Source: Octopus sinensis (taxonomy: Eukaryota). Taken from it: 64,000 nucleotides of DNA. Position numbers and translations under genes: made by a program. The notes beneath the pieces are model-generated. The model made no database searches and was not told where the DNA came from. It was given only the letters and a program-made list of their open reading frames with translations. The stretch lies in the NCBI RefSeq assembly GCF_006345805.1, contig NC_042998.1, positions 21,886,001-21,950,000 of the forward strand, given 5' to 3'. Shown piece after piece: positions 5,567 through 52,847 of the stretch (its first letter is position 1; each line of letters starts with the position of its first letter).

Positions 5567-5908
5567 ATGCCTTTAGATCTTTTAATGAAACTGAAGTCAA
5601 GAGTATGTCTAGCCATTTATGTTTCATGTCACTACAATCTTCAGGTGAAAGTTCTCTCTCTCTGTTTCTCTTTCTCTCTCTCTATCTCTCATATTGAGTA
5701 CTTTATTCTAAGCGGCCAGACATAGCTTCTTTTTGAACTTAGCACACCTTAGAATATATATCTCTATCTATCTATTTGTTTGCCTGCCTGCCTGTCTGTC
5801 TGTCTGTCTGTCTGTATTTATATACAACTGTCTAAGAATTCTAAAGTCAGAAAAAATATGCAGTCATATTTTTATCAATAAAGTGGGTATAGAAATCAAA
5901 GTGTACAG

Positions 5909-5968: not shown

Positions 5969-6174
5969 TGCCAGCCCCGCCTGGCACCTGTGCAGGTGGC
6001 ACGTAAAAGCACCCACTACACTCACGGAGTGCGGTTGGCGTAGGGGATCCAGCTGTAAAACATTGCCAAATTAGACTGGAGCCTGGTGCAGCCTTCTGGC
6101 TTCCCAGAACCCCGGTCGAACCGTCCAACCCATGCTAGCATGGAGAACGGACGTTAAACGACGATGATGATGAT
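5969..6174 (+). mobile_element. Retroposon family C, 3' part with (GAT)n tail
   Basis: ggttggcgtagg...atccagctgta...ccatgctagcatggagaacggacgttaaacgacgatgatg; about ten copies in the window. Confidence 0.85.
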
Positions 6175-6189
6175 ATATATAATATATAC

Positions 6190-6248
<59 letters not shown>

Positions 6249-6251
6249 CAT

Positions 6252-6285
<34 letters not shown>

Positions 6286-6348
6286 CATACATACATACAT
6301 ATATGTGGCAAAGTAATTTATTTTACTAAGCCCTAATTATATAATGTA

Positions 6349-6381
<33 letters not shown>

Positions 6382-6384
6382 TAT

Positions 6385-6415
<31 letters not shown>

Positions 6416-6416
6416 C

Positions 6417-6447
<31 letters not shown>

Positions 6448-6460
6448 CATACATATATAT

Positions 6461-6503
<43 letters not shown>

Positions 6504-6517
6504 CATATAATATATAT

Positions 6518-6550
<33 letters not shown>

Positions 6551-6588
6551 TATATATAACATACATACATACATACATATATATATAT

Positions 6589-6817
6589 AACGGGAAGCTT
6601 TATGAAAATAGACAAAGAGACGAAGGCAGGTTTACGGAAATAAACAAAAGACGAAGGCAGGTGGAATACAAAACAACAATTGTATTAGTATGGCACTCAG
6701 GAAATATAAATAAAACAAGTCTTTAACGTTTTGAGCCTACGCTCTTCAACAGAAAGATACACAGAGAAAAAAAACACAGAAAGAAGGAGAGAAAAAAAAA
6801 AAATATATATATATATA

Positions 6818-6853
<36 letters not shown>

Positions 6854-7040
6854 TATATATAACGGGAAAGTTTACGAAAATAAAAGACGAAGGCAGGTGG
6901 AGTACAAACAAACAAATGTATTAGTATGGCGCTCAGGAATAGAAATAGAAAAAGTCTTTTACGTTTCGAGCCTATGCTCTTCGACAGAAAGATACACAGA
7001 AAAAAAAATAAGAAGAGAAACAAGGAGAGAAAAAAAAAAT
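6589..7040 (-). mobile_element. Tandem pair of a short repeat (family F), each with a hammerhead-like motif; Penelope/retrozyme-like
   Basis: Two colinear copies (6589-6803, 6860-7040) in (TA)n/(TACA)n; third partial copy at 48553-48710; motifs at 6720-6757 and 6955-6992. Confidence 0.65.
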
Positions 7041-16322: not shown

Positions 16323-16805
16323 TCATCATCATCATCATCATCGTTTAACGTCCATTTTCCGCTCTAGCATGGGTTGGACGGTTCGACCGGGGTCTGGGAA
16401 GCCAGGGCCTGCACCAGGCTCCAGTCTGATCTGGCAGTGTTTCTACAGCTGGATGCCCTTCCTAACGCCAACCACTCCGTGAGTGTAGTGGGTGCTTTTT
16501 ACGTGCCACCTGCACAGGTGCCAGGGGGGTCTGGCATCGGCCACGATCGGTTGGTGCTTTTAACGTGCCACTGGCACGGAAGCCAGCCAAGGTGGCGCTG
16601 GCATCGGTCACGTTCGGATGGTGCTTTTTATGTGCCACCGACACAGAAGCCAGTCGAGGCGGCGCTGGCATCGGCCACGTTCGGATGGTGCTTTTTATGT
16701 GCCACCGGCACAGAAGCCAGTCGAGGCGGCGCTGGCATCGGCCACGTTCAGATGATGCTTTTTATGTGCCACCGACACAGAAGCCAGTTGAGGCTGCGCT
16801 GGCAT
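16323..16805 (-). mobile_element. Retroposon family C with ~67-bp internal tandem subrepeats
   Basis: ggtgctttt-like motif recurs at 16491, 16553, 16620, 16687 and 16754; (ATC)n tail at the left end. Confidence 0.9.
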
Positions 16806-23350: not shown

Positions 23351-23993
23351 GGGGGGGGGGTGCAGAAATATAGGGGAGCAACAGTGGGAGGGATGGTTCA
23401 GAGGACAGGTACTAGGCAGTAGAACGTAGGATACCGAAGAGGGGTAATGCATGGTGAAATAGCGTATTGAGAGGGGGGGGCTTCAAAGAGTAGACACCTA
23501 TAATGGTGGTGAGGGGGGGTGCAGAAATATAGGGGAGCACCAGTGGAGGGGTGGTTCAGAGGACAGGTTCTAGGCAAGTAGAACGTAGGATATTCGAGAG
23601 AGGGGTAATGCATGGTGAAATAGCGTATTGAAGAGGGGGGTTCAAATAGTAGACACCTATAATGGTGGTGGGGGGGTGCAGAAATATAGGAGCACCAGTG
23701 GGAGGGGTGGTTCAGAGGACAGGTTCTAGGCAAGTAGAACGTAGGATATCGAGAGAGAGGGGTAATGCATGGTGAAATAGCTATTGAAGAGGGGGGTTCA
23801 AAGAGTAGAACCTATAATGGTGGTGGGGGGGTGCAGAAATATAGGGGAGCACCAGTGGGAGGGGTGGTTCAGAGGACAGGTTCTAGGCAAGTAGAACGTA
23901 AAGATAGGATATCGAGAGAGGGGTAATAATGCATGGTGAAATAGCGTATTGAAGAGGGGGGTTCAAAGAGTAGACACCTATAATGGTGGTGGG
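23351..23993. repeat. Purine-rich tandem repeat, ~157 bp x 4
   Basis: tgcagaaata recurs at 23361, 23520, 23677 and 23832. Confidence 0.9.
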
Positions 23994-27585: not shown

Positions 27586-28032
27586 ATCATCATCATCATC
27601 ATCATCGTCGTTTAACGTCCGTTCTCCATGCTAGCATGGGTTGGACGGTTCGACCGGGGATCTGGGAAGCCAGAAGGCTGCACCAGGCTCCAGTCTGATC
27701 TGGCAGTGTTTCTACAGCTGGATGCCCTTCCTAACGCCAACCACTCTGTGAGTGTAGTGGGTGCTTTTTACGTGCCACCTGCACAGGTGCCAGGTGAGGC
27801 TGGCAATGGCCATGGTCAGATTGGCACGGAAGCCAGTCGAGGCGGCACTGGCATCGGCCACGATTCGGATGGTGCTTTTTACATGCCACCGGCACGGAAG
27901 CCAGTCGAGGTGGCACTGACATCGGTCACGATTCGGATAGTGCTTTTTACGTACCACCAGTCCAGGGGTCCTGGCATCTGCCGGGTGCCAGTCATAGGAT
28001 TGGTTCAAATTCAATTCCGATTTCGATTTCGA
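27586..28032 (-). mobile_element. Retroposon family C
   Basis: Tail nearly identical to 49100-49277; internal subrepeats. Confidence 0.9.
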
Positions 28033-44044: not shown

Positions 44045-45396
44045 TATATATAAAATTGAGGTTGTGTGTGTGTAAACCCGCAGAACTTATGAAGTTCGCA
44101 ACTGATTTTCTCCAAATTGGGTACATACATTACTTATGTTCTAGAGATGGTTTTAGACTCTTAAAATTTTTCACATGGTGGGTAATGGAACCCCTGGGGG
44201 TGGGGTGGAAAACCCCCTTTCTTGGGGTATGTACAACTGCCTGCATGGTCCACGCACTGCTTCTGGTCAAACTGAAGAAGCAGCTACTGAAATGATATAA
44301 GTCGGTTGTATTAAATGGCTGAACAGATGAAGACTTCAAACTGAATTGTCTGAGTGCTAGCAATAATAGCCTGTTCCTGTAGTACCAGAGGAAGCATTTT
44401 AAGGGAATAAAGACCGTTTGGAATGCACTATGTTTATTATGAAAAATATGCTAAAGGCCTTGGTAGCGCAGTAGGCAGCACGCCAGTCTCATAATCAAGC
44501 ATAAAGTTAGAGGAATCTGAAGGTCGTGGGTTCGATCCTCACCTGGGGCACGTAACTTTTGTCCAACCCATGCTAGCATGGAAAACGGACGATAAACGAT
44601 GATGATGATGATGATGATCTTAAATCCTGAGCAACTATTCAGCTATTTTCTTTTAGCTTCAGTGTCAAATTCTTCCTTCTAAGCATAGAGGAAGCCCATA
44701 CAAATATTCATCGGCTATTGATTACAACCTGGAATATCGCATGTACATTAACCTAATAATTTATTGGTGTCTAAGACCCAACCACGTTAGTTAGAAACCG
44801 TGTTCTTAATGTGACTTTGCATGCCCAGAATCTGCATGTAGAATTGTTTTCATTTGGGAGCTGAGTTGTCTTTGCAATGGTCCCATGCTGTTTACATGAA
44901 AGAGTGCACAGTTGAGCCACGACTATTGATTCCAAACTGAAATATCACATGACTGTGTTGTTTTCAAGCGCTTCCTTGCCAATCCATACCCCTTTACCAT
45001 GTCATTTCTTTCATGTAGGTTTTCTCTCATGTGGTGCTGTTGAGCACGCCCACAGGCTTAATTTATCACACAGATGTAGTTCCTATGTCTGCTGATTGTT
45101 CAGCATGGTAGCGGCAGCAGTGCCGACAGGCGCAAAAGAGAGTATATCAACGGAGAGCATTTTGGAGCCTTCAAAAATCACATACCTGCCACCCACTTTC
45201 CCATGACAAGGTTAGGGCTTGGAAGCTTCCAAACAGACACATGTCATGTCACTTAGTCGAATTAGCCCTTCATTTACTCCACAAATGTTTTGTCATCAAT
45301 GCTGCAGTTCCCTGAATCACATGTTTCAACTTAACTGTACCATATATACAAAATATACCCTTTAAATCCTCGACCAACGCTGGGTATGTCTGCTAG
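44045..45396 (+). mobile_element. Larger Helitron-like element in tandem with the previous one, carrying extra sequence
   Basis: 5' tatataaaattgaggttgtgtg...caactgattttctccaaattgggtacatacat resembles 37550-37665; 3' cctcgaccaacgctgggtatgtctgCTAG|T. Confidence 0.65.
44457..44550 (+). tRNA. Elongator tRNA-Met(CAT) with a 21-nt intron (44494-44514); probably a pseudogene
   Basis: GCCTTGGTAGCGCAGTAGGCAGCACGCCAGTCTCATA-[intron]-ATCTGAAGGTCGTGGGTTCGATCCTCACCTGGGGCA closely follows the animal elongator tRNA-Met sequence; intron at canonical 37/38; TTTT at 44557; mismatches C11-A24 and C27-A43, three G:U pairs in the acceptor stem. Confidence 0.85.
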
Positions 45397-45496: not shown

Positions 45497-45531
45497 GTTT
45501 CCGATGAAGAGCTCCGCTCGAAACGTTAAAC
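45497..45531 (+). ncRNA. Minimal hammerhead-like motif (family F relative)
   Basis: gttt-CCGATGA-A-GAGC tcc GCTC-GAAAC-GTT-aaac. Confidence 0.55.
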
Positions 45532-45767
45532 CCTCCTTCTTTCCTGAGCATCCAATAATACTATATTTGTTCCACGTCCTGGCGTTGTTGTGTTTTTTTG
45601 TGCTTTCATGTTTGGATTATCTTTATAAATATATATATTTTTTTAATAGAGCAAACTTACTTAGATTACATAGATTCAAAGAATTAGTGTGGAAAAGGCG
45701 TTACATGTCTGACAGCTGTTTCTGAGTGATCAGAGTACTTCATATGTAACCTTTCTGCTGCACCCTG

Positions 45768-48553: not shown

Positions 48554-48710
48554 ACGGGAAGCTTTATGAAAATAGACAAAAGACGAAGGCAGGTTTACGG
48601 AAATAAACAAAAGACGAAGGCAGGTGGAATACAAACAAACAATTGTATTAGTATGGCGCTCAGGAAATATAAATGAAACAAGTCTTTAACGTTTCGAGCC
48701 TACGCTCATA
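48553..48710 (-). mobile_element. Family F repeat, truncated within the hammerhead-like motif
   Basis: Nearly identical to 6589-6745; breaks at gagcctacgctc. Confidence 0.75.
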
Positions 48711-48944: not shown

Positions 48945-49277
48945 TGTAATCCCTGGGCTGGTGGCACATAAAAAGCACCATCCGAATGTGGCCGATGCCA
49001 GCGCCGCCTTGACTGGCTTCCATGCCGGTGGCACATAAAAAGCACCATCCGAATGTGGCCGATGCCAGCGCCGCCTTGACTGGCTTCCGTGCCAGTGGCA
49101 CATAAAAAGCACCCACTACACTCATGGAGTGGTTGGCATTAGGAAGGGCATCCAGCTGTAGAAACACTGCCAGATCAGACTGGAGCCTGGTGCAGCCTTC
49201 TGGCTTCCCAGATCCCCGGTCGAACCGTCCAACCCATGCTAGCATGGAGAACGGACGTTAAACGACGATGATGATGA
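48945..49277 (+). mobile_element. Retroposon family C with 67-bp subrepeats
   Basis: ggcacataaaaagcacc at 48963, 49030 and 49097. Confidence 0.9.
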
Positions 49278-51579: not shown

Positions 51580-52572
51580 AATTAGATTTGACTGGCATTT
51601 GTTTAATCGACTCTCCTTCTCTCCAACAAAGGATCAAACAAACACAAAGGTGACCTTGTTCAAACCTGAGAGGGGACCAAACCCAAAGCTGCCGGGTCTC
51701 ATTTCGTCCAATTCTGTCTCTTGTCTCCGGAATCTGCTTCTATAAAATTCTATTGATTTCTTCTACAGGCAAAACAAGATTCTACACTTTTGTAAGGGGG
51801 GAAGGGCTAAAGTTAACAGAATCTGTCCCAGCATATGTTCTGGGTCCTAGGGGGGATAAAAAGTGAAATTAATCCTCATTAGACATTGAGGCTTCAGAAC
51901 AGGGAGAAAAAATTAGATTTGACTGGCATTTGTTTAATCGACTCTCCTTCTCTCCAACAAAGGATCAAACAAACACAAAGGTGACCTTGTTCAAACCTGA
52001 AAGGGACGAAACCCAAAGCTGCCGGGTCTCATTTCGTCCAACTTCTGTCCCTTGTCTCCAGAATCTACTTCTATAAAATTCTATTGATTTCTTCTACAGG
52101 CAAAACAAGATTCTACACTTTTGTAAGGGGGGAAGGGCTAAAGTTAACAGAATCTGTCCCAGCATATGTTCTGGGTCCCAGGGGGATAAAAAGTGAAATT
52201 AATCCTCATTAGACATTGAGGCTTCAGAACAGGGAGAAAAAATTAGATTTGACTGGCATTTGTTTAATCGACTCTCCTTCTCTCCAACAAAGGATCAAAC
52301 AAACACAAAGGTGACCTTGTTCAAACCTTAGAGGGGACCAAACCCAAAGCTGCTGGGTTCATTTCGTCCAATTCTATCTCTTGTCTCCAAAATCTGCTTC
52401 TATAAAATTCTATTGATCTCTTCTACAGGCAAAACAAGATTCTACACTTTTGTAAGGGGGGAAGGGCTAAAGTTAACAGAATCTGTCCCAGTATATGTTC
52501 TGGGTCCCAGGGGGGATAAAAAGTGAAATTAATCCTCATTAGACATTGAAGCTTCAGAACAGGGAGAAAAAA
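51580..52572. repeat. Tandem triplication of a ~330-bp unit
   Basis: attagatttgactggc at 51581, 51912 and 52242; high identity between units. Confidence 0.95.
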
Positions 52573-52847
52573 TAAGGCCAGTCCAGAAATCTATCATTTC
52601 TGTCTCCTCTCTGATGCTATATCGAAGAGGCCAGGGAACAGAAGAAAGAAGACATGCACCCAACACCAGAGCTGAAGACACCTCCAAAAAGGGGTGCCCC
52701 GCCACGTCAAAACGGTAGAGGAGTAGGGACCGTAACCGGACGTGGTTCCTCCTGATGATGTCTTGAGCTAACTGGATCCTATAAAGGAGCTGTTATGGTA
52801 GCATACCATGAAACACGGTTGAAATTCCTGTTGTTGTTGTTATTGCT

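What the first reader, a model, noticed from the sequence alone, without database searches (positions are those of the whole stretch)
6589..7040. Tandem hammerhead-bearing repeat: retrozyme-like unit with a non-canonical core
Seen (minus strand): TCTTT-CTGTCGA-A-GAGC atag GCTC-GAAAC-GTA-AAAGA at 6955-6992 and a sister motif 235 nt away (6720-6757, CTGTTGA, GAAA mutated to AAAA). Both have U at the normally invariant A6 and an extra A after A9; stem III is the loopless palindrome ACGT. Known: minimal hammerheads with palindromic stem III are proposed to act as dimers, and tandem HHR repeats (retrozymes) yield circRNAs in some animals. Inference: a non-autonomous ribozyme retroelement that inserts into (TA)n, possibly with a variant core.
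Basis: partly seen in the sequence, partly recalled or inferred. Interest (0 to 1): 0.7.

Follow-up and report, generated by a model that had tools for sequence, protein, structure and literature searches.

The report
Penelope retrotransposon tails with altered hammerhead
The two repeats are leftover tail ends of a very common jumping gene that likely landed separately in the same TA-rich spot, and each carries that group's known small hammerhead motif, with one normally fixed core letter changed in over 16,000 copies, which likely weakens cutting but is untested.

Summary
The motifs are real, but this is not a retrozyme. Both units are 5'-truncated 3' ends (pseudo-LTR) of a Penelope-like element (PLE). 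A full copy elsewhere (L086) has two 94%-identical pseudo-LTRs, each with this hammerhead, around a reverse transcriptase/GIY-YIG reading frame. The two window units belong to different subfamilies: 85% identical to each other, while unit 6590 is 96% identical to a third copy 42 kb away. They likely inserted separately into one (TA)n tract. Unit 6590 has lost catalytic G12, so two cuts and a 235-nt circle are not expected. The extra A and the loopless palindromic stem III are published features of PLE minimal hammerheads. What is unusual is A6U: 16,186 exact copies against 274 with A6. It is shared by six subfamilies whose flanks diverged (30 of 86 columns vary) while core and stem II did not (0 of 22); a sister lineage keeps A6. 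U6 is predicted to favour an inactive hairpin. I found no cleavage footprint in insertion ends and could not test cutting. My literature searches did not find A6U, but a key paper was not available. The scan noted this A6U variant before on other DNA.

The parts
6862..7040 (-). 5'-truncated 3' end (pseudo-LTR) of a Penelope-like element, C7/GUA subfamily
   Evidence: 95% identical to dispersed copies that share the same 3' end beside (TA)n and differ in 5' extent; upstream extension in longer copies reaches GIY-YIG and RT
6955..6992 (-). Minimal type I hammerhead motif with A6U (U6 at 6984), extra A at 6980, loopless palindromic stem III; predicted cut between 6960 and 6959
   Evidence: sequence; pattern counts; cleavage untested
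6803..6861 (.). TA/TACA microsatellite between the two units; likely insertion target, not part of the element
   Evidence: element 3' ends abut TA tracts genome-wide
6590..6802 (-). Second 5'-truncated 3' end of the same PLE lineage, U7/GUU subfamily, with a 32-bp internal duplication (6599-6662)
   Evidence: 85% to the neighbour, 96% to 48554-48708, 94% to a copy in L056; duplication
6720..6757 (-). Hammerhead motif with A6U (6749) and a private G12A change (6732); predicted dead
   Evidence: sequence; G12 is a catalytic guanosine (established knowledge; PMC9901934 passage on catalytic residues)
6173..6589 (.). Long TA/TACA microsatellite at the 3' end of the second unit
48554..48708 (-). 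Third copy, same subfamily as 6590-6802, truncated at the start of stem II so the CUGUNGA part is missing
45497..45630 (+). Copy of the sister PLE lineage; hammerhead with A6, a U4C change and a 3-nt loop
   Evidence: lineage

Best explanation
The two units are 5'-truncated tail ends of a Penelope-like retrotransposon that likely inserted independently into one TA microsatellite, and their hammerhead motif is the element's pseudo-LTR ribozyme motif with a lineage-wide A6U change that likely leaves it a slow but still constrained self-cleaver. [quoted passage not shown] Inferred: the endonuclease nicks TA repeats, RT primes there and usually stops early, leaving tails like these. Inferred: in master elements the motif would cut only rarely, as a dimer through the palindromic stem III or with protein help, while in the monomer U4-G5-U6 is predicted to pair with A15.1-C15.2-G16.2 and hold it off. 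The window copies themselves are likely decaying fossils; with G12 lost in one unit the pair would give at most one cut and no circle.
For: PLE identity: L086 has 223-bp direct repeats, 94% identical, each with the U6 motif, flanking the ORF region. [quoted passage not shown] Independent insertion: identities; 0 of 30 motif-picked loci with a same-strand neighbour within 500 bp, 1 of 30 within 1.5 kb. A6U fixed: U 16,186, A 274, C/G 468, non-G5 560, controls 0. In copies picked by the 3' tail and not by the motif, 21 of 24 readable motifs (30 loci) have U6 (counted by eye). A6 copies of this lineage are scattered across subfamilies in the tree. Constraint: six U6 subfamilies vary at 30 of 86 gap-free flank columns and 0 of 22 core and stem II columns (Fisher p 4e-4); against the sister lineage flanks are 40-47% identical but 21 of 22 motif columns match. 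The only motif positions that differ between U6 subfamily majorities are N7 and N17, the two free core positions, and N17 is A or U, never G, in 64 of 64 intact copies. Across 27 minimal-hammerhead groups in the fetched loci, stem I pairs 83 of 108 and stem II 66 of 81 cells, 0 of 5000 shuffles as high. Predicted G5-C15.2 mispairing: mean probability 0.64 in 46 U6 copies, 0.12 in 18 natural A6 copies of the lineage, 0.006 in 14 sister copies.
Against: No cleavage data of any kind. Pairwise mutagenesis of a type III hammerhead found low activity for CUGA-turn mutants other than the C3-G8 swap (PMC9901934 passage), and natural A6C is slow in Mg2+ (PMC3088659, PMC7151607), so A6U may be dead. Insertion 5' ends show no consistent pile-up at the predicted cut: 13 of 38 TA-joined loci in GUA subfamilies fit the cut site, against 10, 10 and 3 at neighbouring positions; 7 of 9 in the subfamily of unit 6862 did fit, but only 5 of 25 in a second subfamily. 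All copies examined run about 100 nt past the cut site, so templates were not cut at the 3' motif. Stems show almost no covariation inside the U6 lineage. The loop of stem II is also fixed across U6 subfamilies, so the constraint may not be catalytic. Copies were collected with a motif allowing 4 mismatches and the subfamilies are related, so the p value overstates independence; the shuffles ignore relatedness.
Confidence: 0.55

Rival explanations
1. Same PLE origin, but A6U killed catalysis. The motif is kept as a plain hairpin or sequence signal (RT or host-protein binding, or a promoter element in the pseudo-LTR DNA), and the lineage spread without cutting.
For: U6 is predicted to turn the junction into a continuous imperfect hairpin. 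CUGA-turn mutants are generally weak. No consistent footprint at the cut site. The loop is as fixed as the core. Naiad PLEs spread widely without canonical hammerheads (PMC8557442 passages).
Against: G8, A9, G12, A13 and the palindrome stay fixed while N7 takes all four letters and N17 takes A or U, the pattern expected of a catalytic core. N7=U would extend the hairpin, yet three other letters are tolerated.
Confidence: 0.35
2. One reading: a non-autonomous retrozyme whose 235-nt tandem unit is cut out and circularised.
For: Two same-strand hammerhead motifs 235 nt apart, in the size range of animal retrozymes (PMC7229834 passages). Both units start at the same T run. Retrozymes are proposed to derive from PLE pseudo-LTRs (bioRxiv 10.64898/2026.07.22.740005, abstract and part 1).
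Against: Different subfamilies, a microsatellite spacer, G12A in one unit, close pairs in 0 of 30 motif-picked loci, and direct continuity with an RT/GIY-YIG frame. The hammerhead is the minimal PLE type, not the canonical type of retrozymes.
Confidence: 0.03
3. A6U is compensated (by the fixed 4-nt loop, by Mn2+ or by the element's protein) and the ribozyme is near-normal for a PLE hammerhead.
For: U6 and the 4-nt GUAG loop arose on the same branch. A6C variants cut well in Mn2+ (PMC7151607).
Against: No second mutation rescued CUGA-turn mutants in the one comprehensive study seen. No structural partner for U6 other than the inhibitory pairing was found.
Confidence: 0.07

Closest known systems
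Minimal hammerheads (min-HHR) in pseudo-LTRs of metazoan Penelope-like elements (Cervera and de la Pena 2014, PMC4209133; read: parts 1-2 of 4 of the text, and searches in supplement file 2; file 1 not available)
   Same: Type I, short stem I, unpaired nucleotide between 9 and 10.1, G10.1-C11.1, palindromic 15.2-16.2 without loop, in both pseudo-LTRs, mostly as solo truncated copies
   Different: U at position 6 across a lineage of more than 16,000 copies. In supplement file 2 'CUGU' occurs 3 times, none in a core, against 58 'CUGA'; their descriptor fixed the catalytic boxes. Stem II is 4 bp, shorter than the 7-8 bp given for Schistosoma.
Neptune/Nematis-type EN+ Penelope-like elements (Craig et al. 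2021, PMC8557442; read: passages from two term searches)
   Same: RT with DKG motif, C-terminal GIY-YIG with internal Cys pair, CX2-5CxxC linker, pseudo-LTRs, 5' truncation, microsatellite targets
   Different: Clade not placed by phylogeny here; hammerhead core non-canonical, whereas that paper reports canonical hammerheads for C-terminal EN+ PLEs
Natural A6C hammerhead of phage Bcep176 (PMC3088659 passages; PMC7151607 part 1 of 4)
   Same: Natural change at core position 6
   Different: C instead of U, a single phage example, tested (slow in Mg2+, faster in Mn2+); here a whole animal retrotransposon lineage, untested
Metazoan non-LTR retrozymes (PMC7229834 passages; bioRxiv 10.64898/2026.07.22.740005 part 1 of 5)
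   Same: Hammerhead-bearing units a few hundred bases apart
   Different: Retrozymes are non-coding tandem arrays of intact, mostly canonical type I hammerheads that give circles; this is a chance pair of tails of a coding element, one with a dead core

Membership tests
EN+ Penelope-like element | RT followed by C-terminal GIY-YIG endonuclease in one frame | tested here: met
   L096, 618 aa open: RVT_1 30.1 bits above cutoff, GIY-YIG 16.7 bits below cutoff; GIY-YIG E 8e-4 in L061. The window units are tails without ORF.
EN+ Penelope-like element | Pseudo-LTR direct repeats flanking the ORF, carrying a hammerhead | tested here: met
   L086: 223 bp, 94% identical, motif in both; 1 of 20 long loci showed both repeats
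EN+ Penelope-like element | Frequent 5' truncation with a fixed 3' end | tested here: met
   30 of 30 loci share the 3' end; 5' extents vary
Neptune/Nematis clade | CX2-5CxxC linker before the endonuclease and Cys pair inside GIY-YIG | tested here: met
   C-x4-C-x2-C linker and C-x2-C between the motifs in the translation; definition
Neptune/Nematis clade | Placement in RT phylogeny with reference PLEs | not tested
   no reference PLE proteins fetched; PDB sequence search found nothing
PLE minimal hammerhead | Extra base after A9, G10.1-C11.1, palindromic loopless stem III, short stem I | tested here: met
PLE minimal hammerhead | Canonical core C3 U4 G5 A6 N7 G8 A9 / G12 A13 A14 | tested here: not met
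   U6 in both units and in 16,186 of 16,928 G5 copies of this pattern; unit 6590 also G12A
PLE minimal hammerhead | Covarying stems | tested here: inconclusive
   covariation across groups in the genome and a C-G to G-C swap at 2.4:1.4 against the sister lineage; almost none inside the U6 lineage
Hammerhead ribozyme | Self-cleavage after NUH | not testable with these tools
   needs in vitro assay; genomic footprint inconclusive
Non-LTR retrozyme | Tandem array of one unit with intact hammerheads in consecutive units | tested here: not met
   85% identity, different subfamilies, microsatellite spacer, G12A
Non-LTR retrozyme | Family is non-coding | tested here: not met
   continuous with RT/GIY-YIG frame
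Non-LTR retrozyme | Expressed as unit-length circular RNA | not testable with these tools
   no raw RNA reads offered

The most novel reading that the evidence does not exclude
A whole retrotransposon lineage runs on a natural A6U hammerhead that works as a switch: off as a monomer because U6 zips the core into a hairpin, on only as a dimer, with Mn2+ or with the element's own protein. It would be a natural core variant I did not find in print, paired in one genome with a canonical A6 sister lineage as a ready control for whether Penelope elements need their ribozyme.
Probability: 0.25. Interest if true: 0.65.

Novelty: new variant of a known kind. Interest (0 to 1): 0.38.

Why it matters
The role of hammerheads in Penelope-like elements is open: they cut poorly in vitro and some PLE clades lack them (PMC4209133, PMC8557442). 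Here one lineage changed an invariant core base, kept the rest of the motif and made at least 16,000 copies, while a sister lineage with at least 9,000 tail matches kept A6. That pair gives a direct bench test of whether the cut matters. It also shows that searches requiring CUGANGA would miss most copies of this motif in the genome (16,186 against 274). The locus itself is ordinary: two dead tails in a microsatellite.

Tried and rejected
Rfam at gathering score: no hammerhead hit. Monomer folding z-scores were not significant. Two-strand folding of natural copies gave almost no intermolecular stem III (mean probability 0.004-0.10), so it does not speak to the dimer model. Cleavage footprint: one search seemed to show many TA joins at position 1.1, but the pattern excluded one phase of the TA tract, so I dropped that comparison and the matching sister search. 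In one search, 9 of 41 distinct loci in the first 100 of 742 rows joined at 1.1, but 7 of the 9 are in the GUU subfamily where the join has TA microhomology, and 5 of 41 joined at the TA in loop II (hand count). Searches gave no consistent peak. Expression: no RNA holder listed on record, all runs were contigs; this is no evidence either way. Contigs from four runs under four organism labels (three studies) showed all three other letters at N7 and no row at position 6, but the table also lacked the known N17 variant, so I treat it as a weak hint that U6 is shared by related species. The layout of RNA-guess runs on the full element was not obtained. PDB sequence search with the ORF: 0 hits. A separate A6 sub-lineage inside the U6 lineage was considered; the tree (138 of 202 rows, bootstrap not settled) shows A6 copies scattered. 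Luense, Weinberg and Breaker 2016/17 (about PLE hammerhead dimers) is not held; it and its supplements may list A6U. Literature searches for the variant: 'hammerhead'+'A6U' gave 2 listings on other RNAs (listing only), 'hammerhead ribozyme'+'octopus' 4 unrelated or already seen listings; an Octopus vulgaris repeat paper has no 'hammerhead' or 'ribozyme' in its text (PMC13282606, passages).

Full report
Observation. The window is a microsatellite-rich stretch of a 2.7-Gb animal genome (G000:C2), likely an octopus (my inference from size and repeats, not tested). Both have U6 and an extra A after A9; the unit at 6590-6802 also has G12A. A third, shorter copy lies at 48554-48708 and a copy of a related lineage at 45497-45630. 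Rfam finds no hammerhead and monomer folding is not better than shuffles.

What the unit is. A genome search with unit 6862-7040 gave 2005 candidates; all 30 fetched loci share one end, mostly next to (TA)n, and differ at the other. That is the pattern of 5'-truncated retro-insertions. Walking upstream led through a pyrimidine-rich 3' region into a GIY-YIG domain and a reverse transcriptase on the hammerhead strand. L096 holds both in one 618-aa frame (RVT_1 above cutoff, GIY-YIG weak). The translations show DKG, a C-x4-C-x2-C linker and two Cys inside the GIY-YIG motif, the marks of Neptune/Nematis-type PLEs (PMC8557442). L086 is a full element: two 223-bp direct repeats, 94% identical, each with the U6 motif. 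In one search, 16 of the 20 long loci had the unit downstream of the RT probe.

Why not a retrozyme. The two window units are 85% identical. Unit 6590 is 96% identical to the copy at 48554 and 94% to a copy in L056; unit 6862 is 95% identical to copies on other contigs. They differ at subfamily marks (N7, N17, a 32-bp duplication, the 3' end). A 59-nt TA/TACA tract lies between them. Among 30 loci picked by motif alone, none had a same-strand neighbour within 500 bp and one within 1.5 kb; among 30 picked by tail, none and three. I infer two separate insertions into one target tract. With G12 lost in one unit, a dimer could make at most one cut, so no 235-nt monomer or circle is expected (inference from the dimer model in PMC4209133). 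Both units start at the same T run, which I did not test as a truncation hot spot.

Which features are known. Cervera and de la Pena list the base between 9 and 10.1, G10.1-C11.1 and the palindromic 15.2-16.2 as standard for PLE minimal hammerheads, mostly as solo truncated copies, with low activity even as dimers. Only A6U is unusual. Their supplement file 2 has no CUGU core.

A6U is the lineage state. Exact genome counts with the same stem II: U6 16,186, A6 274, C6 or G6 468, non-G5 560, backwards controls 0. Tail-picked copies agree: 21 U, 2 C, 1 A among 24 readable motifs of 30 loci. Some A6 hits belong to a sister lineage (9,131 tail matches) with A6 in 27 of 28 and 5 of 5 clustered copies; the others are scattered among U6 subfamilies, as expected of back-mutation. 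More distant minimal hammerheads in the genome have A6 and different stems, so A6 is likely ancestral and U6 derived.

Is it still constrained? Of 223 copies, 193 fell into eight clusters of four or more. The six U6 clusters vary at 30 of 86 gap-free flank columns and 0 of 22 core and stem II columns (p 4e-4, with the caveats that copies were gathered by a relaxed motif and clusters are related). Against the sister lineage, flanks are 40-47% identical while 21 of 22 motif columns match. Only N7 and N17 differ between U6 subfamily majorities; N17 is A or U in 64 of 64 intact copies. The loop of stem II is fixed too, which a purely catalytic constraint does not require. Stems covary across 27 groups of minimal hammerheads in the fetched loci but hardly inside the U6 lineage.

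Does it cut? Not shown. Published data point to weak activity: CUGA-turn mutants were low in a pairwise scan (PMC9901934) and natural A6C is slow in Mg2+ but cuts in Mn2+. Folding natural copies predicts that U6 lets U4-G5-U6 pair with A15.1-C15.2-G16.2 (mean 0.64 in 46 copies, against 0.12 in 18 natural A6 copies and 0.006 in 14 sister copies), hiding the palindrome in the monomer. I looked for insertions starting at the cut site. The first test was biased and dropped. The unbiased ones were inconclusive: 13 of 38 loci fit the cut site against 10, 10 and 3 at neighbouring positions, with 7 of 9 in one subfamily and 5 of 25 in another. No RNA reads were available.

Earlier notes of the scan. 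Several unchecked notes describe the same A6U PLE motif, one in this genome and others elsewhere, one of them in a probable shark element. They agree with the reading I had recorded before looking and are not independent evidence; I did not test the shark claim.

Verdict. Real motif, known kind of element, one variant feature. PLE tails: about 0.95. Retrozyme: about 0.03. For the U6 motif: slow but constrained ribozyme 0.55, dead but kept as a signal 0.35, compensated and near-normal 0.07. Interest 0.38.

Noticed in passing
window 45497-45630 (+): Sister-lineage PLE tail whose hammerhead has A6 but U4C (CCGANGA); several sister copies share U4C, so it marks a subfamily.
   Followed up: partly
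G000:C8:80490300-80491211 (listing): Three A6 hammerhead motifs on one strand, 437 and 448 bp apart; a better retrozyme-like array candidate than this locus.
   Followed up: no
L142/L143 (G000:C2:25746051 and 25746481): Two A6 copies of the U6 lineage 430 bp apart on one strand.
   Followed up: no
L022 1129-1677: Direct and inverted truncated copies joined inside the hammerhead loop, the complex insertion shape described for PLEs.
   Followed up: no
window 44457-44550 (+): Weak tRNA match (33.7 bits) with a 23-nt insertion, likely a tRNA-derived SINE head.
   Followed up: no
window 16491-16805, 27823-27958, 48960-49113: Recurring 67-68 bp tandem units of one dispersed repeat family.
   Followed up: no
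window 51580-52573 and 23354-23993: Tandem arrays of 330 bp x3 (96%) and 157 bp x4 (92%); my hammerhead scans found no motif in them.
   Followed up: partly
L084, reverse strand about 5600-5880: The PLE frame is interrupted between linker and endonuclease by a stretch that looks like the end of another retroelement.
   Followed up: no
L249-L277: Many other minimal-hammerhead families with canonical A6 and different stems (354 pattern hits, control 9).
   Followed up: partly
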